Source: a virus (Duplodnaviria > Heunggongvirae > Uroviricota > Caudoviricetes). Taken from it: a stretch of 64,000 nucleotides of DNA. Made by a program: the position numbers and the translations under genes. Of the stretch, positions 2,697-13,369 are shown in pieces. The stretch is taken from the IMG/VR virus record IMGVR_UViG_2617271072_000004, positions 1 through 64,000 of that record; one strand, 5' to 3'. The notes under the pieces are model-generated. The model did not search any database, was not told the DNA's origin, and was given only the letters and a program-made list of their open reading frames with translations. Numbering within the stretch: position 1 is the first letter of the stretch; each line of letters opens with the position of its first letter.

Positions 2697-3269
2697 ATGC
2701 AAATTGGCTACATTCGTGTGTCAACAAATGACCAAAACACAGATTTACAAAGAAATGCACTGAACTGCGCAGGATGTGAACTGATTTTTGAAGATAAAAT
2801 AAGCGGAACAAAGTCAGCCAGACCAGGCTTGAAAAAGCTGCTCAGAACGTTATCAGAAGGAGATACGCTGGTTGTCTGGAAGCTGGATAGGCTTGGCAGA
2901 AGTATGAAACACCTTATCACGCTTATAGAGGAGTTGCGGGAAAAAGGTGTTAATTTCCGTAGTCTGACAGACAGTATTGACACATCAACACCCATGGGGC
3001 GTTTCTTTTTTCACGTCATGGGGGCTTTAGCAGAAATGGAACGTGAATTAATTGTTGAGAGAACACTGGCCGGACTGGCAGCTGCACGCGAACAGGGACG
3101 CATTGGCGGACGTCGCCCGAAGTTGACAAAAGAACAACATGAGCAAATAGCGAGGTTGATCGAAAATGGCTACAGCAGGAAACAGTTGGCAATTATTTAC
3201 GATATCGGTGTATCGACGATTTATCGTTATCATCCTGTAGAGAAGCGCCAAACTCAATCTGAGCTGTAA
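2697..3269 (+). CDS. cin: serine DNA invertase (Hin/Gin/Cin/Pin family)
   Basis: MQIGYIRVSTNDQNTDLQ with catalytic-serine motif and C-terminal HTH; AAAGAGG RBS before ATG 2697 (ORF track starts at upstream TTG 2688). Confidence 0.95.
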   Translation: MQIGYIRVSTNDQNTDLQRNALNCAGCELIFEDKISGTKSARPGLKKLLRTLSEGDTLVVWKLDRLGRSMKHLITLIEELREKGVNFRSLTDSIDTSTPMGRFFFHVMGALAEMERELIVERTLAGLAAAREQGRIGGRRPKLTKEQHEQIARLIENGYSRKQLAIIYDIGVSTIYRYHPVEKRQTQSEL

Positions 3270-3704
3270 TTCTAATGCCGCGTCGGTGTAATTTATCTTG
3301 ATAGAATAGGTACATTTATCGCGCGGCACATCAATTCGATGTATCTAGCGCCTGCTGACCGCTAATGAAAACTGTCCTCGAAATGTTGTCCCTAGTCCGA
3401 GACTAGGGTATCACCTCTGGAAAGCATACGCAGAACCTTTTTTAACCCAGGGTGCCCAGCCTTTTTGCTGCTCGCCTTATTCGCAAAAATTAGCTCACAT
3501 CCTGCGCTTTCAAGTGCTTTTCACTGCATAGCTGTGTTTTGTTCATTTGTCTATATGCGTACATAGCCTATTAGCATATTTTCTGCCCACTATCGTTATT
3601 TATTGCAAGCTACTGGTTTTAATTAACAAAACCAGTGTGTGTGGAAATCACAAAGTGCATACCGTTCTCAAATGTTGTTCAACTTACTGTTGTATAGGTA
3701 AAAA

Positions 3705-3968
3705 ATGACATTTTATGTACATATCGTGATGTTATCCCTTCTTGGTGGGGTGTATTCGTATTTGAGTGGGCTATGTGAAAACCGTTACGAGTCTTCATGC
3801 AAGAAATTGCTGGCCGAATGTATTTCCGCCGTACTTGCTGGCTTTATTGGCATGTATCTCGCGGAATATAAGGACATGAATGAAAGCCTTCAGAGCTGCA
3901 TGGTTCTTATTTTTAGCGCCAATAGCAGGCTTATTATTGAAGGTTCCAAAAGTCGGTTGAATAGGTAA
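3705..3968 (+). CDS. small hydrophobic protein, possible holin-like
   Basis: 87-aa ORF with hydrophobic segments upstream of lydA. Confidence 0.4.
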   Translation: MTFYVHIVMLSLLGGVYSYLSGLCENRYESSCKKLLAECISAVLAGFIGMYLAEYKDMNESLQSCMVLIFSANSRLIIEGSKSRLNR

Positions 3969-4042
3969 GTCTCTTATGCAACATAACCGGTTGAGAAGTT
4001 ACTTTGCATACCATTACCTCCTGACAACGTAGGAGGGAACTT

Positions 4043-4372
4043 GTGCTTGACACACAGGAATTAGCTCCAGTTGCTATTGCGCTCCTGCTTTCAGTAATTG
4101 GTGGGATAGGCACGTTCCTGATGGATGTCCGAGACGGTCGCCAGTCTGGCAATTTGTTGGGATTGGTTACGGAGATCTTTGTTGCAGTGACAGCTGGCGC
4201 GGTGGCGTACCTATTGGGGCAACATGAGGGCTGGGAGTTATCAATTACGTACTTAATGGTAACGATAGCCAGCAATAACGGTCATGAGGTGATTTCAGGG
4301 ATGAAACGAGTGAATATCGATAGCATTCTGAATGTTCTTACAAGTTTGGTGAAAAAGGGAGGTGGGAAATGA
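4043..4372 (+). CDS. lydA: holin
   Basis: 109 aa, hydrophobic; GTG start after AGGAGGG RBS; symbol assigned by P1 gene order. Confidence 0.55.
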   Translation: MLDTQELAPVAIALLLSVIGGIGTFLMDVRDGRQSGNLLGLVTEIFVAVTAGAVAYLLGQHEGWELSITYLMVTIASNNGHEVISGMKRVNIDSILNVLTSLVKKGGGK

Positions 4373-4812
4373 TTGGCTGGGGTGTATGCGTTCTTGCGTT
4401 AGCCTTAGCCGATCGCTATTTGCTAAAACGCAAGGACATCACGCATTTAGAACTTGGTGATGTGGAAATTAAACCGGGTTTCATCCGGGTGCCGTTCAAA
4501 TACCGGTCTAAATTCCCGTTTTTGCGCGGCGCAACGGTCAGATATTGGATCCGCGATGTTCAGAAGCCGACGACTGTGATTGAAGGCGAACAACGTTGTC
4601 TGACGTCGGCTGAACAGGGCGAAAACAGTGAATGGTTGTACATACCCACTGAATATATGGGTAAAGGAGAACGGCTGTGGCATTTCAACGTCATGGTTAC
4701 GCATGGCGACTCGTTCATTAACCCGTTGTATCGGATTTTCCCTGTTACTCAGCAAATCCGCAGAAGTTACGTAATAAATCTCGCACAGGATGTGTCAGAT
4801 GACGAAAAATAA
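4369..4812 (+). CDS. lydB: antiholin
   Basis: 147 aa, start overlaps lydA stop; symbol assigned by P1 gene order. Confidence 0.55.
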   Translation: MIGWGVCVLALALADRYLLKRKDITHLELGDVEIKPGFIRVPFKYRSKFPFLRGATVRYWIRDVQKPTTVIEGEQRCLTSAEQGENSEWLYIPTEYMGKGERLWHFNVMVTHGDSFINPLYRIFPVTQQIRRSYVINLAQDVSDDEK

Positions 4813-5401
4813 GTATGCAACGGTCGATTTTGACCAGGTTAATGAAAAGGGGCTGAAATCCCTTATCGCGGCGATCAATAAAACCGGTGTTACGGTAATT
4901 GAGGTTGACTCCAGCAACCGCGCAACAACGAAAGATGGCGTTAAAGTTAAAACCGCAAAGCTGGTTCTTAACGACGGACAAATTCTTGCCATACAGGTAA
5001 ACGATACTGGCGATATATCGTCTGTGAGGCTGAATGGAAAAGCTATTCCTAACGCTCAGTCGCCGGATATCAAGACGCTTGGTACCGTCATGGGGCAAGC
5101 GGCCCGCAAAAACTCCGCAAAATTCCAGAAATCACTGATCGCCAAAGCGAAACGTGTTGCCAATCCGGTAGACAAGAAACCGGCAGTAAAATCCAACTTT
5201 CAGCGCCTGCAAGAGGCAAAACAGCGGAATGCTCAGGTGGTTGCCGCTTATAAATCAGCGCAGAACTCGGTGTCTTTCAATCAACAGCAGATCACTGATT
5301 TGCGGGCGAAGCTGGATAAGGAGACAGGCCGACTCAATAACGAAAAGGCCCGAAATGGCGAACTCAAACGCCGTCTTAAGCAACTGAAAGCAGGAAATTA
5401 A
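4799..5401 (+). CDS. hdf: Hdf, homologue of a DarA fragment
   Basis: Contains ARKNSAKFQKSLIAKAKR, matching EKNSAKFQRAQKKKKA in DarA; directly upstream of darA. Confidence 0.7.
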   Translation: MTKNKYATVDFDQVNEKGLKSLIAAINKTGVTVIEVDSSNRATTKDGVKVKTAKLVLNDGQILAIQVNDTGDISSVRLNGKAIPNAQSPDIKTLGTVMGQAARKNSAKFQKSLIAKAKRVANPVDKKPAVKSNFQRLQEAKQRNAQVVAAYKSAQNSVSFNQQQITDLRAKLDKETGRLNNEKARNGELKRRLKQLKAGN

Positions 5402-5402
5402 C

Positions 5403-7322
5403 ATGGAACAGTTCAATATCAATAAAGGGGTGACGATCAAGCCTGGGCTTGACGTGCTTCCCCCGCCAGTGACTGATGATGAATATCGCGCATTAATGGC
5501 CGGTGAGGACCGCTATCTGATGACGGAATCCAACACCCTGGAGGAAATCGAGGCTACGTTCTTCTATGACACGCCGATCCACTGGTGTGCTACGGATTTA
5601 CTGGAGGCGATTAGTTCTACTCGTTTGCAGTTACACCGGACCATGCAGGCATTTGTCCGGGCATTAAACCAGAAGCTGAATGGTACCGGAATCTCTGCGG
5701 GGAGTGATAAAACGGGGGATGTGGCCCAGAACGGTGCACGCGCGATCGGCGGGGCTGAAATTGGCCGGGCACGTAACGTTAACGGGCTGCCGGTCCTGCC
5801 AGCCATTATTCCGCTCAGTGATGGTCAGACTATCAGCATTCTGTTTCATAGCCCGACAGCGGAAAACCGGATCACCAATAGCGATACGCTGATTGCTTTC
5901 CAGTTCTTACTGAATAAAAAAGACGTTACTCATACCGTTGCTCCGATGAGTGGACGTGATATGACGCTGGCGCAGGTCACCATGAAACTTGCCAACCTTG
6001 CAGAGAAAAACTCGGCAAAATTCCAGCGTGCGCAGAAGAAGAAAAAAGCCCTGGTTGATGAAATAACCCAACTACAGGCTGACAGTGACCAGAAAGAGGA
6101 TGCCATGAGCGACCTCGCGGATCAGGTGGCAGCGGTAGAAGGGCAGAAGGTAGATCTGGAGCAGAAAATTAACGCTGTTGCATCGGAAGCGGATTCTCTT
6201 TATGAAGAGAATGAGCGTTTGCAGACGGAGATTGATCAGCTCAATCGCACTGGTGGGCGCGAAACCATTGCTCCTGCGGGGATGACTGGTGGACACTCTC
6301 GCGCGATGACGGATCGCCTTGCAAGTATCAAAAATCGTATGCATATGAACGGGGAAGTGACGCTCAGTAATGGTGCATCAATGAAGCAATTCATTGAGGA
6401 CGGTGAAGGGTATATCCAGTTAACCGATTCGGATGGCAGCGTGTACATGATCAAGGCTAAATCCATACAGGGTGTGGACATGGCAGATGCGATCGGCAAG
6501 CTGTTTAAAGCCTATAAAGCGGGTAATGTATCGGAATACCTGGTCCAACCAGAAGAACATAAACCGGAAAACGTCGAACCTGAACCAGCGGAGGATACCG
6601 GTAGCTCTTCGCCTGAACCAGAAGTCTCTATAGGTGCATATCGATATGCCCTGCAAATGCGTCCGGCGGCCCCTGGCGCAATACCTGAAGGTAACAAAGC
6701 AATTCTGCCGCGCCCTGATGAAGGTGACCCGTATTATGAATATGCACGCTACGGCATTGCTACTTACGATACCCCGCTTTCTGATCAGCAAATGAGTGAG
6801 TACGACCTGAAGTTATTGCCTCGCGAGGATTCTTTCGACTTCCTGGCGAAGACACTTACTAATGGTCCGTTTGGCAAATATGCACAAAAAGCTCTGGAGC
6901 TGGCCACCAGCTCACCAGACGAGTTCCGCGTAATGCTGAAAACTCAGTTTCAAAAAACTTTCCCCAATATTGCGTTTCCTGGGGGCGCTGGCACCGAGAA
7001 AATGGTGCAGAGCATGATCAATGCATTGCAGGCCGAAGTCGGTGAGATTACTCAGCCAGAACCGGCCCCGGCACAGCCTGATGAAATGGTTAGCGAAGCA
7101 GATGCAGAGGCTAATAAAGCCATTGAATATCTCAATAACGTGATGGATATACAAAGCACTGACATGGCGGAGATCCGTAACGCCCGGGGCAATGTCCGGG
7201 AAGCGATTGCAGCCCTTCAGGCTGCCGGACGTTTTGAGGAAAACGAAGAGCTGGTTAACGGCGCAGCTCGCCACCTGGCTGATCTGCTGGTAGCAATCCA
7301 GAAAGCGGGGGTAGCGGCATGA
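5403..7322 (+). CDS. darA: virion-packaged antirestriction protein DarA
   Basis: 639 aa, the size of P1 DarA; synteny hdf-darA-ddrA-ddrB. Confidence 0.8.
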   Translation: MEQFNINKGVTIKPGLDVLPPPVTDDEYRALMAGEDRYLMTESNTLEEIEATFFYDTPIHWCATDLLEAISSTRLQLHRTMQAFVRALNQKLNGTGISAGSDKTGDVAQNGARAIGGAEIGRARNVNGLPVLPAIIPLSDGQTISILFHSPTAENRITNSDTLIAFQFLLNKKDVTHTVAPMSGRDMTLAQVTMKLANLAEKNSAKFQRAQKKKKALVDEITQLQADSDQKEDAMSDLADQVAAVEGQKVDLEQKINAVASEADSLYEENERLQTEIDQLNRTGGRETIAPAGMTGGHSRAMTDRLASIKNRMHMNGEVTLSNGASMKQFIEDGEGYIQLTDSDGSVYMIKAKSIQGVDMADAIGKLFKAYKAGNVSEYLVQPEEHKPENVEPEPAEDTGSSSPEPEVSIGAYRYALQMRPAAPGAIPEGNKAILPRPDEGDPYYEYARYGIATYDTPLSDQQMSEYDLKLLPREDSFDFLAKTLTNGPFGKYAQKALELATSSPDEFRVMLKTQFQKTFPNIAFPGGAGTEKMVQSMINALQAEVGEITQPEPAPAQPDEMVSEADAEANKAIEYLNNVMDIQSTDMAEIRNARGNVREAIAALQAAGRFEENEELVNGAARHLADLLVAIQKAGVAA

Positions 7323-7684
7323 CACTATCAGCTATTGAGTTAATGGATCTCAGCGATAAGTTGGATGCTCTGATGTCCAAAGCGGCAACCGCGAGTGGCA
7401 TGGAGTTGCTGGATATCAGCGATGAAATTGACCAGATCATGCAACAGATGGGGTACGGCGCGTCCGGCGGTGGTAGTGGCGAGGAAAAACAACCTTCGGA
7501 ACATGATGGTGTGCCAAAACTGGTTGCTGATTTCCTGGCTGATAAATTCGTCGATCAGAGCACAGATGCATTTATCGGTACCTTGCAGGACTTGAGTCAA
7601 TATGTTGGCACATACATCGACCTGGACCAGGTTAAACAGCACACGGCGGCATGGATAGCCGCCAACATTAAAGAGGCAGCATAA
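7319..7684 (+). CDS. ddrA: DdrA
   Basis: 121 aa, overlaps darA stop. Confidence 0.65.
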   Translation: MTLSAIELMDLSDKLDALMSKAATASGMELLDISDEIDQIMQQMGYGASGGGSGEEKQPSEHDGVPKLVADFLADKFVDQSTDAFIGTLQDLSQYVGTYIDLDQVKQHTAAWIAANIKEAA

Positions 7685-7696
7685 GGCGTAACAGGG

Positions 7697-10684
7697 ATGA
7701 GCTTAAGCGATCAGGTGGTAATGGCCACCAGCATAGAAACGCTGATCGAGCTGCTAAAGAACCTGCCCGATTATGGGCGGGTTTCGTATGTGGTGACAGC
7801 GAAGGGAGACGAGGTAAAAACAGCGTTTGATATCGTCGATGCCTCAGCTCTTTTGGTATCCAATACTCTGGATGGGAAAATTAATCCTGACTATCCCCAG
7901 GAACTTCAGCCGCGCGACCGGACCCGCGCATCCAGCCTTCTTCAGGTTAACCAGATATCCAAAGATTTGCGGCCTGCTCAGCTTACCGATTCCGGTTTAT
8001 CCAGCCATGGCGCGCCGATAATTGGTGAGGACAATGCCGTTGAGTCAGGTAATGGACGGACCATGGGGATCATCAAAGCCTATCAGGACGGCAATGCGGA
8101 TCGGTATCGTGAGTACCTGATTGAACATGCGACCGAATTCGGCATACCTCCTGAAAAGGTTGAATCAATGACGGCTCCGGTACTGGTGCGCCGCCGGTTA
8201 ACTAAGGTTGACCGCGTTCAGTTTGCCAAGGACTCAAATATTTCTGATCTTCAGGAAATGGCAGCCAGTGAAAAGGCTTTTGTTGATGCCGACAGCATAA
8301 CACCGGCGATGATGGCGCTGTTTAACCCGTCAGAAAGCGGAGATCTGCTTAGCCGCAGTAATGACGCTTTTATCCGCGGATTCATGACGCAAGTTGGTGC
8401 CACACAGGCTGCTGGCCTTGTAACGGAAGATGGGCGACCAACACGGCAACTTGTAGACCGTATACAAAACGCGATCTTTGCCAAGGCATATAAGGATGCG
8501 CGCCTGGTAAGGATGGTTGCAGAAGAACCTGATCCGGATATGCGTAATGTTCTGACGGCGCTTAATGCGGCGGCCAATGATTTTGTCCAGATGCAGGCTT
8601 TATCAGGTGAAGCGCACAAGCAGGCTGTGACAACTATTGTTGATGGTATTGAAACAGCGGATAGCCTCGATAAAAAGGCGCTGGCGGCATTGAAAGATGC
8701 GGTAGACCTGGTAAGGCAATCGAAGGAGTCAGGCCAGCATATTACCGATGTTATTGCTCAGGGGGATATGTTCAGCGAAACGGCCCCGGAAGTGAAAGCA
8801 CTCGCGTTGTTCATCGTCGCGAATAACCGTAGCGCGAAGCGTATGGCCACCGCCTTTAAGTTGATGGCTCAACGTATCAATGATGAGTTACAGCACCAGG
8901 GCCAGGCGCTGGGGGATATGTTTGGCGGCGGCGATGTGTCGTTACAGGATATCCTTCGCCAGGTGTCTCAGGAACTGGAAAACGAAGGCATGCAAGGGAT
9001 ATCCGGCGGTCTTTTCGAGTCCGTTTCCGGCGGTAGTTACAACGGTGTTGCTCCGTATACCAGTTTGCTATTACATCGGGCATCCGGCATCAAAGACATT
9101 ATTCATCTGATCAGGCTGCTTTCCCGCACAGATCCCCAGGATGAACAGCTTGTACAAGTGCTTGCGCATTTTGTTCGAATGCCTGTTGCCGACGTGAAAA
9201 AATGGTGTCGATTATTCGGTATCAGCAATTCGTTACTTCGCGGCTTGTTAAATCACGCATCCTCCCTTGGGCGCGATGGCTTTGACGAGATAGCGCAGGC
9301 GATAAAAAACGGAGATATGCCACCAGCTATTGACTGGTTTTCCATTCGCCCAACCAGGGTGAAAGCATTCCTTAGCGCGGCGCATTCGGCATCACCATTG
9401 GCAGAAATGGTTCAGAGGTTGTCGCTCATATTCACAGACCATACCGCGTTGGGTGATCTGACTCTGGACGAGATGAAAGACGCCTCCATTCAGTGGGCCG
9501 ATCAACAAAATGAGGTTAACTCAGACTTCTTGCCAGCATTCAGGAAGGCCGTTAGTAAAGCGGATGATGCCCGTGGAATTCTGAAGGCATTTAAGGCATT
9601 GCAAAGTCGTGTTAATAAACATGTCGGTGATATCGATGGGGTAACGGCGGAAGGCCGGGATATCCTTAAAGAGCACGGCATAACGCCAGAGTTTATTGAT
9701 GAGATCAGGACTGATATGCAGCGTGAGGTCGTATCGTCCCTGCAAATCGTAGCCAGAGCGTTGGCGGATGCTAATCCGAAGAGTGCGGCCATTGTTAACC
9801 GGGTTATTGGTGATATTGAAGCATCGGAGGGCATGGGGGCGCTGAAACTCTTCCTTTCGCGAGCGTTTAATCCTAACGGCAATATTCTCCCTGGCATTAT
9901 TGGTGAGGCTAAAAAGTATGTCAGTGAAGAAGAACTTGAGCAGCTTGACCAACTACTTAAGCGATTCTCATATAATCCGCAGACACGCTGGCAAATGAAT
10001 CAGCGAAGTATGGGTTCGGTCCACGAGAAAGTGTTATCTGCCATGAACAGTGCGATCGCAAACTCATCCGTATCTGAAGAAAAAGCTCTTGAGTGGGCCG
10101 ACTCTTTTATCACAGAAGAAGTGGAAGAAGCCCGCGCTGGACAGAATGGTGGGATAGACCTGCGCAAGGAACTTGCTGATATTTATCGCCTGACCGGCGG
10201 GAAAATATCGACCTTATCAAAGGTAGTTCACCACCAGGGAAGGGCATATGCAAATCTAAATGGTGTTGTTGCTGTCAATTTGAACGATGAAAATGCAAGT
10301 GCACTGTGGCACGAGCTGGGTCATCATCTTGAGTACAGTAACCCTGGTTTGTTAGAGAAAGCCCGGTCATTCCTGAAGGCCAATGTTGAAGGGGATAAGC
10401 CATCTTTCGTCAATATCGGTGGGCGTGGCAAGCCTGAATGGTGCTTCAGATCTCGATTGAGTAATATTTATATGGCGAAGGTATACCCGCCAGCCTCAGT
10501 AAGTAACACCGGGAAAATTCGGCAGAAATCACCGACTATTTCCAAAACGTCAGCAACGGAAGTATTCTCTATGGCTCTTCAGTTGTATCATGACAAAGAG
10601 GCCGCTGCCGCATCACTGATGAATGGTGACGGATTGCTGGAACTGTTATTAGGTGTGGCAAAGGAGCTAAATAATGCAGATTAA
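7697..10684 (+). CDS. ddrB: DdrB, large dar-operon protein
   Basis: 995-aa ORF in P1 dar operon position. Confidence 0.7.
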   Translation: MSLSDQVVMATSIETLIELLKNLPDYGRVSYVVTAKGDEVKTAFDIVDASALLVSNTLDGKINPDYPQELQPRDRTRASSLLQVNQISKDLRPAQLTDSGLSSHGAPIIGEDNAVESGNGRTMGIIKAYQDGNADRYREYLIEHATEFGIPPEKVESMTAPVLVRRRLTKVDRVQFAKDSNISDLQEMAASEKAFVDADSITPAMMALFNPSESGDLLSRSNDAFIRGFMTQVGATQAAGLVTEDGRPTRQLVDRIQNAIFAKAYKDARLVRMVAEEPDPDMRNVLTALNAAANDFVQMQALSGEAHKQAVTTIVDGIETADSLDKKALAALKDAVDLVRQSKESGQHITDVIAQGDMFSETAPEVKALALFIVANNRSAKRMATAFKLMAQRINDELQHQGQALGDMFGGGDVSLQDILRQVSQELENEGMQGISGGLFESVSGGSYNGVAPYTSLLLHRASGIKDIIHLIRLLSRTDPQDEQLVQVLAHFVRMPVADVKKWCRLFGISNSLLRGLLNHASSLGRDGFDEIAQAIKNGDMPPAIDWFSIRPTRVKAFLSAAHSASPLAEMVQRLSLIFTDHTALGDLTLDEMKDASIQWADQQNEVNSDFLPAFRKAVSKADDARGILKAFKALQSRVNKHVGDIDGVTAEGRDILKEHGITPEFIDEIRTDMQREVVSSLQIVARALADANPKSAAIVNRVIGDIEASEGMGALKLFLSRAFNPNGNILPGIIGEAKKYVSEEELEQLDQLLKRFSYNPQTRWQMNQRSMGSVHEKVLSAMNSAIANSSVSEEKALEWADSFITEEVEEARAGQNGGIDLRKELADIYRLTGGKISTLSKVVHHQGRAYANLNGVVAVNLNDENASALWHELGHHLEYSNPGLLEKARSFLKANVEGDKPSFVNIGGRGKPEWCFRSRLSNIYMAKVYPPASVSNTGKIRQKSPTISKTSATEVFSMALQLYHDKEAAAASLMNGDGLLELLLGVAKELNNAD

Positions 10685-10982: not shown

Positions 10983-11188
10983 ATACTAACAGATCGTCTA
11001 TGTGGCTAGAATCGTTCGAGTTTAGCGATTAACGGAAGTTCTGGTCGATTATGATTAGTGCATATTCATGCACAGGCACACAAAATCTGGAGATATTGAT
11101 CAGCGTTTATGTATAGTTTGTAATATAAAAATCGCCTTGAACGGAGTTTGTGCGTTATGAGAATCAATCTTAACTCTGGAGTAAGATA

Positions 11189-11557
11189 GTGGACGCTTTG
11201 TCTGAGGTTTTCGTTAATAATTGGCTTCCTGGTATCTGCACATTTTTTTTTAGGGATCTTTTATTCTAATATTGTTGAAAAAAAGAAACTTAAACAGAAG
11301 TTAAAGAATGATATTCTTGAGATATTCATTCCTGTATTTAACCCCGGAAATGAAATCTCCATTGAAATTGCTGAGAATGCTTACAGGAATATGAATGGTA
11401 CGTTTCAGTTGTACAAGAGAATATATCCAGGTATGTTCAACAAAGAAGCAGAGCGTGAGCTAGACCGACTACTAAAAGACGGTTTCCTCATAAATGGAGA
11501 GGTTAATAAGCATTACTTTGAACCAACTAATATTGAGAGCCTGATTAAAAGATTATA
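11189..11557 (+). CDS. small membrane-anchored protein, frame interrupted at a T9 run
   Basis: Removing one T from 11242-11250 joins a GTG-started hydrophobic N-terminus to the 55-codon ORF 11390-11557. Confidence 0.3.
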
Positions 11558-11576
11558 ACTCATTTACCACAGTTAA

Positions 11577-11600
11577 AACCCCGCTTCATTGCGGGGTTTG
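11577..11600. terminator. hairpin terminator between convergent genes
   Basis: CCCCGC-TTCATT-GCGGGG flanked by A-run and T-run. Confidence 0.5.
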
Positions 11601-11764
11601 CATCATGCGCCAATAAAAGCTATTTATTCTGCGTCAAGTTGTAACATCTAATCCACTATTATATATCGTTATGTTTGGCATATAACAGATAATTAAATGA
11701 ATTATATCCAGATCTAATTTTATGCGGTTCTGGAACCCGGCTACGTACTATATAATAGAAAAAA

Positions 11765-13220
11765 TCAGAGTCTATCAAAAATAGAGCCTTTTCTCGGTAC
11801 AAATATTTTCTCATACAGTCGAGTAGCGTAATCATCTGTCATGCCTGAAACATAGTCGCAAATGACGCGCATTTTTTTATCATCACCTTTTGCTTCCTCT
11901 TGATTATATTTCTTTCGAGTTTCTGTCGGGAGAAAACGTATTGGGTCATTTGCCAGTACATTGAATAGTTCCACAATCAGTTTCTGACCTTTGAACTCTA
12001 ATAGTTGGACGTTTTCGTGCTGAATAACTTTGTTCCTAACCAGCTCAAAAATGGCTTTACGTAACTCTTCTACCGCGGCAGGAAGTGCCACTTTATAGCG
12101 TAAAAATTTTACTTTTGAAATCAGAGTTCTGCACTTCAAGCTTAACGCTAGTGATCATCAGATGAACAAGTGTCCCTATGCACTCCTTGCGTAGATAACT
12201 TTCGCCGAACAGTTTTTCAGCTACATCATCGGCTTTTAGATTAAACGAGTCGCATTGGCAAGCTGCAAATAAATGGGATTTGTCCTCGAAGTGCTCCTCC
12301 CACATTTTTTTGTCGATCATCTTCAGAGAAATTGCGTCTTCAAGATCATGGAGTGAGTAGGATATCTCATCAGCCAAGTCCATAATCGTTGTATCCAGTG
12401 CTTTATATATTGTTTCCTTGTGCTTATTCAACGCGGTAGTTTTTACCGTTTTGAATAACTTAACATCATCACTATCAAAAGGTTGGAGTGCGAATCTAAC
12501 AGTGTTCTCCTCAGAGTCCAGGTAACATTTCGGGGGCTTAAATTCGGATGATTTAAACAACCACTCATTGCTTCTTGGCTGTAACTGGCTGTAAGCCCTC
12601 TCATTGACGACCTCTGAATAGCTTGCTGGATATTTCAGTACGCCTAAAATAAGTCTACGGGTGGGATCCAGCCCATTGGTTTCGGTGTACTTATCCAGTT
12701 TGGAGAGTATACGCAGTGTCTGCCCGTTACCTTCAAAGCCGCCATAGGATCTCATGCAGTAGTTTAGTGCGACCTCACCACCATGACCGAAGGGGGGATG
12801 TCCTATATCATGAGCAAGGCAGATAGCCTGCATCAGGCTTGGGTCAGGTAAGAATTTACCCCCCTCATCTGTATCGCGCTTAGACAACTGAGACAAGATA
12901 CCGCCGCCAATTTGCGCTACTTCCATAGAGTGAGTTAGCCGCGTACGGTAGAAATCGCTTTCGCCCAATCCCAACACCTGCGTCTTCGATTGTAATCTCC
13001 TAAAAGCGGAAGAGTGGATTAACCGGGAAAGATCACGTTCATACTCCGACCTTATCTCATTCGGGCGGGTGGTATTGTACCCTTGACGCTCATACCAAGT
13101 ATTTTCTTTGCAGTGTGTCATACGTGTTCCTTTGGGCAGGATAGAGCAAGTCGCCTGCTTAATTGCTGAAGAAAGAAATACAAATTTGTAACGCTGTGGA
13201 TCTTCTTTATGCGTCCACAA
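11765..13220 (-). CDS. Dgt-family dGTP triphosphohydrolase (HD domain), apparent frameshift near 12101-12116
   Basis: RRLQSKTQV, RTRLTHSMEVAQ, HDIGHPPFGHGGE, FEGNGQ and C-terminal DYVSGMTDDYA motifs; ORFs 12093-13220 and 11765-12139 overlap in different frames. Confidence 0.85.
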
Positions 13221-13301
13221 TCAGTAAATATTGGATACTTGCAAGGTGCGCGAAACACTAAAGATTGTCAATTAATAATTAACACCTCTTATAGTTACTA
13301 G

Positions 13302-13330
13302 AAATAAAAATCCCCTGTATTAACAGGGGC
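13302..13330 (-). terminator. rho-independent terminator after ssb
   Basis: On minus strand CCCCTG-loop-CAGGGG followed by TTTTTATTT. Confidence 0.6.
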
Positions 13331-13369
13331 CTGTGTATGAACTATTTACAAATAACTCACAAGTTAACT

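What the first reader, a model, noticed from the sequence alone, without database searches (positions are those of the whole stretch)
11150..11600. Cryptic small membrane-protein gene convergent with the dGTPase
A 55-codon ORF (11390-11557) ends just before a hairpin terminator. Deleting one T from the T9 run at 11242-11250 fuses it to a GTG-started hydrophobic N-terminus (NNWLPGICTFFLGIFYSNIV), giving a ~120-aa membrane-anchored protein. It may be a partner or regulator of the dGTPase.
Basis: inference. Interest (0 to 1): 0.45.

Follow-up and report, generated by a model that had tools for sequence, protein, structure and literature searches.

The report
Frameshifted copy of known small gene
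The "cryptic" gene is a real, conserved 122-codon gene of unknown function that is intact and already annotated in dozens of related P1-like phage-plasmids; here it is split by one extra T that is most likely an assembly error, and it is not a partner of the neighbouring dGTPase.

Summary
A T9 run at 11243-11251 splits a GTG-started reading frame (11189-11558), and removing one T gives a 122-aa protein. That repaired gene is not new. Thirteen of 13 fetched P1-like relatives, and about 50 of 53 RefSeq E. coli plasmids, carry T8 and an annotated intact "hypothetical protein" (WP_089634606.1, PHROG 26730).

The window differs from a close relative by at least 21 single-base indels in A/T runs. 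These also break the dGTPase and portal-like, Cre-like and DnaB/Ban genes. Four of five testable sites are private to the window. The T9 is therefore most likely a homopolymer assembly error, and less likely a private mutation.

The gene is under purifying selection (dN/dS about 0.1) and belongs to a very small gammaproteobacterial family. The protein has a moderately hydrophobic N-terminal helix and a helical C-terminal part.

It moves as its own module of about 0.55 kb. At least 12 other contexts have no dGTPase nearby. These include a P2-like prophage, genomic islands, plasmids and apparent integron cassettes. A related chromosomal dGTPase has no copy of this gene nearby. The partner or regulator idea is therefore not supported.

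The neighbours are often defence genes, so a stand-alone defence or exclusion role is my best guess, at low confidence. Function remains unassigned.

The parts
11189..11558 (+). Frameshifted copy of a conserved 122-codon gene: GTG start, TAA stop, 370 nt here because of one extra T. It matches WP_089634606.1 / WP_000339558.1 and PHROG 26730.
   Evidence: dN/dS is 0.08-0.15.
11243..11251 (+). T9 homopolymer. It is T8 in every fetched relative, and the extra T causes the frameshift.
   Evidence: Searches show T8 in 13 of 13 relatives. In one search about 50 of 53 full-length RefSeq matches are one base shorter.
11189..11269 (+). N-terminal fragment as it reads in the window: 26 codons, then TAA.
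   Evidence: read directly.
11391..11558 (+). It is the C-terminal 55 residues of the 122-aa protein.
11278..11284 (+). Second slippery run (A7, the KKK codons). It is A8 in one RefSeq relative, where the gene is left unannotated.
11178..11181 (+). GGAG Shine-Dalgarno-like motif 7 nt upstream of the GTG. It is conserved in the enterobacterial copies.
11576..11599 (+). GC-rich hairpin 18 nt after the stop. It is a terminator candidate with a short U tract and is conserved with the gene in other contexts.
   Evidence: Not called by the consensus scan.
11129..11666 (+). Extent of the mobile single-gene module: the stretch of DNA homology shared with unrelated genomic contexts.
11765..13121 (-). 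Anti-phage dGTPase gene, convergent with the small gene. In this window it is also frameshifted (A5 at about 12102 against A4 in 14 relatives). It is a separate module.
10983..13369 (.). Cargo slot between hxr and ssb. This is the P1 'variable region 2', which in P1 itself holds isaA-IS1-isaB.
   Evidence: PMC9603915.

Best explanation
Window 11189-11558 is a copy of a real, conserved, independently mobile accessory gene. It encodes a 122-aa protein with a moderately hydrophobic N-terminal helix (probably a single membrane anchor with the C-terminus in the cytoplasm) and a helical C-terminal part.

The gene sits in the hxr-ssb cargo slot of a P1-like phage-plasmid, next to an anti-phage dGTPase that was acquired as a separate module. 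In this record the gene is split by one extra T in a T8 run. Because the whole window carries the same kind of single-base A/T-run indel in essential phage genes, the extra T is most likely an assembly or sequencing error rather than biology.

Shown:
- the gene is intact in relatives
- it is under purifying selection
- its module has its own boundaries
- neither it nor the dGTPase depends on the other's presence
- the window carries a homopolymer-indel signature

Inferred, at about 0.3 confidence: the protein acts on its own as a lysogen-expressed, membrane-associated defence or superinfection-exclusion type factor. This rests on the gene recurring as a single-gene cargo in phage, island and integron hotspots beside unrelated defence genes.
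For: Intact gene in relatives:
- T8 and an annotated 122-aa CDS are present in L001 and L002.
- 13 of 13 fetched P1-like copies carry T8.
- About 50 of 53 full-length RefSeq E. coli plasmid matches are one base shorter and annotated.

Error signature:
- There are at least 21 single-base indels in A/T runs against NZ_CP126930.1 over 50.4 kb.
- Those that fall inside annotated CDSs hit the dGTPase, the 569-aa prt-position gene, the 343-aa cre-like integrase (three sites), dnaB/ban and a 405-aa gene (with the CDS tables).
- At 11243, 12102, 14004 and 16697 the window's run length is unique among 6-14 relatives.

Real gene:
- dN/dS is 0.08-0.15.
- The block KL.QKLK.DILEIFIPVFN is invariant across genera.
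- The match to PHROG 26730 has E = 1e-76.

Independence from the dGTPase:
- No dGTPase is present in any non-P1 context.
- The chromosomal dGTPase has no small gene nearby.
- The homology boundaries are separate.

Hotspot and defence neighbours:
- Eco57I-type and type III restriction-modification genes, and a RelA_SpoT gene.
- A GmrSD/NsnA-like gene next to P2 gpA.
- A SIR2 gene matching PDC-S25 at 4e-77.
- A 5'-nucleotidase matching PDC-S08 at 1e-117.
- An Mrr gene.

Other points:
- The marine copies are bounded like integron cassettes.
- GC content is 33.8% against 48.2% for the window.
- For topology, 6 K/R follow the hydrophobic segment and 0-1 precede it.
Against: - Read data are not available, so a true private T9 mutation cannot be excluded.
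- The hydrophobic segment scores below the classical Kyte-Doolittle threshold of 1.6 (1.3-1.55), and the AlphaFold model is only moderately confident (pLDDT 68, and 55-62 over the N-terminus). Membrane insertion is therefore predicted, not shown.
- Association with defence genes is qualitative. Some contexts (L024, L029) show no recognisable defence neighbour.
- The gene is disrupted in several relatives: IS10 in L037, and other frameshifts in L006, L036 and L040. It is therefore dispensable for the plasmid.
Confidence: 0.72

Rival explanations
1. The T9 is a real mutation. In this particular plasmid the small gene, and independently the dGTPase, have become pseudogenes as part of a decaying, defective P1-like element.
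For: Homopolymers are also true mutational hotspots. Other relatives carry disruptions of this gene that cannot all be errors, for example an IS10 insertion with a 9-bp duplication in L037. The nearest relative found, CP027320.1, is unannotated and also differs in length here.
Against: The indels are confined to A/T runs and are mostly +1. About half fall in coding sequence, including the portal-like, Cre-like and replicative helicase genes, while substitution divergence is only 1.3%. That pattern fits read or assembly error, not selection-filtered evolution. The sites are private to the window.
Confidence: 0.14
2. The T run is a functional switch. Either the gene is expressed through programmed transcriptional slippage or +1 ribosomal frameshifting at T9-AGG, or it is phase-variable between T8 and T9.
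For: Runs of 9 A/T are slippage-prone for bacterial RNA polymerase and can phenotypically rescue frameshifts (Baranov et al. 2005, PMC1088944; mxiE is discussed there). The gene has two runs (T8 and A7) within 45 nt, and rare length variants of both exist: A8 in L006 and a T7-type product, P0008. The rare AGG codon follows the run.
Against: The in-frame T8 state is nearly universal, so no two-ORF arrangement is conserved. More distant homologues encode the same residues without a long T run being needed (alignment). Length variants are few and appear in assemblies of uncertain quality.
Confidence: 0.04
3. One reading: the small membrane protein is a functional partner, regulator or immunity factor of the adjacent dGTPase.
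For: The two genes are always adjacent in P1-like plasmids. In E. coli complete genomes, 64 plasmids match the small gene and 64 plasmid places match the dGTPase. One distant homologue also lies next to a nucleotide-degrading defence candidate, the 5'-nucleotidase PDC-S08.
Against: There is no co-occurrence outside this one island. The chromosomal dGTPase stands alone. The genes are convergent, with a hairpin and 206 nt between them, and have separate module boundaries. Marine copies look like single-gene integron cassettes, so the adjacency to PDC-S08 may simply reflect cassette order. PADLOC and NCBIfam each identify the dGTPase with a single-protein model; from memory, Tal et al. 2022 described the anti-phage dGTPase as a single-gene defence.
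Confidence: 0.05

Closest known systems
WP_089634606.1 / WP_000339558.1 'hypothetical protein' of P1-like E. coli plasmids; PHROG 26730 (unknown function)
   Same: Same gene: 98-100% identity over all 122 residues once one T is removed, at the same position between hxr and the dGTPase.
   Different: The window copy has T9 instead of T8, so it reads as a 26-codon and a 55-codon fragment.
P1 'variable region 2' (isaA-IS1-isaB) between hxr and ssb
   Same: Same chromosomal slot. Homology to P1 stops at the hxr stop (10981) and resumes at the ssb stop (13372). The slot is described as one of eight variable regions of P1-like phage-plasmids (PMC9603915).
   Different: The content differs: the small gene plus an anti-phage dGTPase, instead of isaA, IS1 and isaB. 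There is no similarity to IsaA or IsaB.
Small prophage-encoded membrane proteins that exclude or abort superinfecting phage (such as T4 Imm, P22 SieA/SieB, lambda RexB), recalled from general knowledge
   Same: Working analogy only: small size, an N-terminal hydrophobic anchor, carriage as single-gene cargo by temperate elements, and low GC content.
   Different: No sequence or fold similarity was found and there is no phenotype. Membership is not claimed.
Integron gene cassettes
   Same: The marine 132-aa homologues lie in a module of about 600 bp. It starts at G|TTATCTT, right after a '...GCGGCGTTA' sequence, and ends with TAACAAAGCGCAGC...GCGCGGCGTTA about 140 nt after the stop. It is conserved across four genera.
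   Different: The P1-like and enterobacterial copies carry a different 3' flank, a hairpin plus about 70 conserved nt, with no recognisable attC. No intI was looked for, and the attC-like segment does not fold better than shuffles.
Genes decoded through transcriptional slippage at 9T/9A runs (Shigella mxiE, IS elements; PMC1088944)
   Same: A nine-T run lies at the junction of two overlapping frames.
   Different: In those cases the split arrangement is the conserved state. Here the conserved state is the in-frame T8.

Membership tests
PHROG 26730 / the WP_089634606.1 protein family | Full-length, significant match to the family profile | tested here: met
   E = 1e-76 over residues 2-122 of a 122-position profile. 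34 homologues were found with E from 7e-74 to 7e-14.
PHROG 26730 / the WP_089634606.1 protein family | Uninterrupted reading frame | tested here: not met
   The window has T9 and the frame breaks at 11252. Relatives have T8.
Accessory component of the anti-phage dGTPase defence | Conserved co-occurrence with dGTPase genes across unrelated genomes | tested here: not met
   No dGTPase lies within 6 kb in at least 12 non-P1 contexts. An 80%-identical chromosomal dGTPase has no homologue nearby.
Accessory component of the anti-phage dGTPase defence | Same transcription unit or shared module | tested here: not met
   The genes are convergent with a hairpin between them. Homology to other contexts ends at 11666 for the small gene and starts at 11761 for the dGTPase.
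Accessory component of the anti-phage dGTPase defence | Functional dependence (defence phenotype, interaction) | not testable with these tools
   Needs genetics or biochemistry.
Single-pass inner-membrane protein (N-out, C-in) | Hydrophobic segment of about 19 residues above the transmembrane threshold | tested here: inconclusive
   The Kyte-Doolittle 19-residue maximum is 1.29-1.55 in six family members, below the classical 1.6. The segment is conserved (W12, P14, G15, T18, F19, L21, G22 invariant). AlphaFold gives one long helix 2-49 at low pLDDT.
Single-pass inner-membrane protein (N-out, C-in) | Positive-inside charge bias | tested here: met
   6 K/R in the 15 residues after the segment against 0-1 before it, in all six members.
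Known anti-phage defence or candidate systems (PADLOC-DB 2.0) | Match to a defence protein model | tested here: not met
   No PADLOC family at E <= 10.
Integron gene cassette (marine homologues only) | Single ORF followed by an attC with RYYYAAC...GTTRRRY ends, and a module boundary at G|TT | tested here: inconclusive
   The boundaries and the TAAC...GTTA ends fit. The single-strand fold is no better than shuffles (z = 0.15). No intI or array was examined.
Programmed transcriptional-slippage genes | Out-of-frame two-ORF arrangement with a run of 9 or more, conserved among homologues | tested here: not met
   T8 in frame in 13 of 13 fetched relatives and about 50 of 53 RefSeq relatives.

The most novel reading that the evidence does not exclude
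The 122-132-aa family (PHROG 26730) may be an uncharacterised, self-sufficient single-gene anti-phage or mobile-element-competition factor. It may act at the membrane and be spread as a minimal cassette of about 0.55 kb through P1 and P2 prophage hotspots, genomic islands and chromosomal integrons.
Probability: 0.25. Interest if true: 0.5.

Novelty: already known. Interest (0 to 1): 0.2.

Why it matters
For this window the finding mainly flags data quality. The record carries many A/T-homopolymer indels, so split ORFs in it, including the dGTPase, portal-like, Cre-like and Ban genes, should not be read as pseudogenes or cryptic genes without read support.

Biologically the gene is an ordinary annotated hypothetical. 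Its one point of interest is that a very small, strongly conserved family travels alone as a compact cassette and lands repeatedly beside defence genes. That makes it a cheap candidate for a phage-challenge screen. It does not bear on how the dGTPase works.

Tried and rejected
- Pfam, NCBIfam and PADLOC scans of the repaired protein gave no meaningful match.
- A profile search of 1.84 billion representatives found only 13 family members and no remote relatives.
- A PDB profile search found nothing significant.
- The afdb50 fold library was not available.
- I suspected that the 1.5-kb gene-free gap after the E. coli/Salmonella copy hid a dGTPase remnant. It holds degenerate IS fragments.
- An apparent conserved small ORF downstream of the marine copies ('M68') turned out to be conserved attC-like DNA in different frames.
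- I tested for similarity to P1 IsaA and IsaB, which occupy the same slot in P1. There is none.
- A literature search by accession and by PHROG identifier found no papers.

Full report
**What the window is.** The surrounding genes identify a P1-like phage-plasmid (Punavirus). They are a 995-aa DdrB-like ORF, hxr, an SSB, the P1 lysozyme, and the pro and prt-position genes. The best matches are E. coli P1-like plasmids and phage vB_EcoM-673R5, at 98-99% identity.

**Checking the observation.**
- The sequence shows a nine-T run at 11243-11251.
- A GTG at 11189 is preceded by GGAG, with a 7-nt spacer. It opens a frame that stops at TAA 11267-11269.
- A 55-codon ATG ORF lies at 11391-11558.
- A stable hairpin lies at 11576-11599 (-18.8 kcal/mol, z = -3.35). 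It has only a three-U tail on this strand and was not called by the consensus terminator scan.
Deleting one T gives a 122-aa product.

**The repaired gene already exists.**
- In plasmid NZ_CP126930.1 and in phage vB_EcoM-673R5, the homologous position carries a 369-nt CDS annotated 'hypothetical protein' (WP_089634606.1 / URC10181.1).
- A base-by-base comparison shows that the only change affecting the reading frame is T9 against T8. The one substitution in the gene, relative to NZ_CP126930.1, is synonymous.
- Of 64 matches in complete E. coli genomes, all on plasmids, 53 cover the full 181-nt query. About 50 of those are one base shorter and annotated.
- All 13 fetched P1-like copies whose flanks could be matched carry T8.
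- The protein matches PHROG 26730 (unknown function) end to end at E = 1e-76.

**Why the extra T is probably an artefact.**
- I aligned the whole window to NZ_CP126930.1: 50.4 kb aligned, with 644 substitutions.
- There are at least 21 isolated single-base indels in A/T runs of four or more, mostly +1 in the window.
- I mapped them onto that record's CDS table. They fall in the small gene, the dGTPase (A5 against A4 at 12102), the 569-aa gene next to pro (the position of P1 prt), the 343-aa site-specific integrase (Cre-sized, hit three times), dnaB (P1 ban), a 405-aa gene and others. About half are in coding sequence.
- Five of these sites lie within the fetched relatives. At four of them (11243, 12102, 14004, 16697) the window's run length is unique among 6-14 independent sequences.
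- Frameshifts in portal, recombinase and helicase genes at only 1.3% substitution divergence fit uncorrected homopolymer error, not evolution under selection.
- A genuine private mutation cannot be excluded without reads, and I give it about 0.14. Real disruptions of this gene do occur. One relative has an IS10 with a 9-bp target duplication inside it, and three have other small frameshifts.
- If T9 were real, RNA-polymerase slippage on a nine-T run could still give some full-length product (PMC1088944). The in-frame T8 state is the conserved one, however, so a programmed mechanism is unlikely.

**The gene is real and conserved.**
- A word-indexed search of 5.8 billion proteins found 34 homologues.
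- An exhaustive profile search of 1.84 billion representatives found only 13.
- The hosts are Escherichia/Salmonella, Enterobacter, Lonsdalea, Dryocola, Yersinia, Vibrio, Marinomonas, Rheinheimera and Halomonas, plus a few metagenomic bins.
- Identity falls to about 55%, yet 43 columns are invariant, including the block KL.QKLK.DILEIFIPVFN just after the hydrophobic segment.
- Pairwise dN/dS is 0.08-0.15.

**Anatomy of the protein.**
- There is one conserved, moderately hydrophobic segment (NWLPGICTFFLGIFY; Kyte-Doolittle 19-residue maximum 1.3-1.55). It has 0-1 K/R before it and 6 K/R in the next 15 residues. This suggests a single anchor with the C-terminal part in the cytoplasm, but the score is below the classical threshold.
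- AlphaFold2 predicts an all-helical protein with helices at 2-49, 58-78, 85-97 and 112-121. Confidence is moderate (pLDDT 68, pTM 0.49).
- Fold searches gave only generic helical bundles.
- Pfam, NCBIfam, PADLOC and PDB sequence searches gave nothing.

**Relation to the dGTPase.**
- The neighbour at 11765-13121 on the minus strand matches NCBIfam antiphage_dGTPase (571 bits, cutoff 400) and the PADLOC dGTPase model (1.7e-148).
- The two genes are convergent and 206 nt apart.
- In P1-like plasmids they always occur together: 64 plasmids match the small gene and 64 plasmid places match the dGTPase.
- Outside that island the link disappears in both directions.
- I examined the following contexts of the small gene:
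  - an E. coli/Salmonella chromosomal island
  - an Enterobacter plasmid
  - a metagenomic island
  - a P2-like prophage
  - Lonsdalea
  - Dryocola
  - Yersinia prophage-like regions
  - Vibrio
  - Marinomonas
  - Rheinheimera
  - Halomonas
  - two metagenome-assembled genomes
- tblastn finds no dGTPase within 6 kb in any of them.
- Conversely, an 80%-identical anti-phage dGTPase on E. coli chromosomes has no homologue of the small gene nearby.
- DNA homology to other contexts covers 11129-11666 for the small gene and 11761-13179 for the dGTPase. The island is therefore a composite of two modules.
- The slot itself, from the hxr stop to the ssb stop (10983-13369), is the known P1 variable region that holds isaA-IS1-isaB in P1 (PMC9603915).
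- dGTPase has been reported as a common defence cargo of E. coli P1-like elements (bioRxiv 10.1101/2025.09.12.675607).

**How the small gene travels and what it sits beside.**
- Enterobacterial copies share a module of about 0.57 kb at 87-94% identity. It comprises about 70 nt upstream, the ORF, the hairpin and about 70 further conserved bases, and it is inserted in unrelated surroundings.
- Marine copies share a different module of about 0.6 kb whose ends look like an integron cassette with its own attC. I did not confirm this with an integron detector, and the segment's fold is unremarkable.
- Neighbours include:
  - Eco57I-type and type III restriction-modification genes, and a RelA_SpoT protein
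  - a GmrSD/NsnA-like nuclease next to P2 gpA
  - a SIR2 protein matching PDC-S25 at 4e-77
  - a 5'-nucleotidase matching PDC-S08 at 1e-117
  - an Mrr-type nuclease
- Each neighbour is different, so no conserved partner emerges.
- The gene's GC content is 33.8% against 48.2% for the window.

**Most likely mechanism.**
- The evidence supports a self-contained single-gene cargo that is expressed from the resident element and acts without the dGTPase.
- My best guess is a stand-alone membrane-associated defence or superinfection-exclusion type factor. This rests on the small size, the anchor-like N-terminus, carriage by temperate elements and recurrent placement in defence hotspots. I hold it at roughly 0.3.
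- This last step is inference. Nothing here tests activity.

**Verdict.**
- The structural observation is correct.
- 'Cryptic' is wrong, because the gene is annotated elsewhere.
- The frameshift is most likely an assembly error, in a record that has many.
- The dGTPase-partner idea is not supported.
- Interest is low. What remains of interest is that a tiny, well-conserved and uncharacterised family keeps turning up in defence hotspots.

Noticed in passing
window 11765-13121 (- strand), frameshift at about 12102: The anti-phage dGTPase gene is split into 375-aa and 124-aa ORFs by an A5 run that is A4 in 14 of 14 relatives. This is the same kind of private homopolymer insertion as in the small gene.
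   Followed up: yes
whole window, e.g. 16697, 31069, 31362, 31692, 52624, 56207, 61826: There are at least 21 single-base indels in A/T runs relative to NZ_CP126930.1. They break the prt-position (portal-like), Cre-sized integrase, dnaB/ban and other genes. The record looks like an unpolished assembly, so split ORFs anywhere in it are suspect.
   Followed up: partly
L011 5936-6539, L017 5935-6532, L018 5989-6537, L027 5886-6492: Marine homologues lie in a conserved module of about 600 bp. It starts at G|TTATCTT and ends with TAACAAAGCGCAGC...GCGCGGCGTTA, which looks like an integron gene cassette with its own attC. In Marinomonas the preceding gene is a 5'-nucleotidase matching PADLOC PDC-S08.
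   Followed up: partly
L005 4288-4985 (NZ_CP032890.1), and ten further E. coli plasmids where homology starts at window 11189: An IS1 ends 15 nt upstream of the small gene's GTG, replacing the native upstream region and hxr side. The gene stays intact and annotated (WP_000339558.1).
   Followed up: partly
L037 6267-7793: An IS10-like element (CTGATGAATCCCCTAATGATTTT ends, transposase of about 400 aa) is inserted in the small gene with a 9-bp target duplication. This is a genuine natural knockout.
   Followed up: partly
L007 7939-8376 (-), L023 6781-7218 (-): In the E. coli/Salmonella island and in a metagenomic island, the small gene is convergent with a 145-aa cysteine-rich ORF carrying several CxxC pairs and no family match. 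In L007 about 1.16 kb of degenerate IS separates them.
   Followed up: partly
L006 2610-2625 (NZ_CP069092.1): This RefSeq relative keeps T8 but has A8 instead of A7 in the KKK run 27 nt downstream, and the gene is left unannotated. The gene therefore has two slippery runs close together.
   Followed up: yes
L041-L043 (IMG/VR contigs) 3101-10172: A 127-aa homologue sits in a P2-like prophage between a GmrSD/NsnA-like nuclease gene and replication gene A. It is preceded by an acidic 111-aa ORF that is also present upstream of the Lonsdalea copy (L025).
   Followed up: partly
window 10983-13369: The hxr-ssb interval is a cargo slot that holds different content in different relatives: isaA-IS1-isaB in P1, nmpC/odaA in P7 and ompD in JL22. 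GC content drops to 34-37% in the spacers and the small gene.
   Followed up: partly
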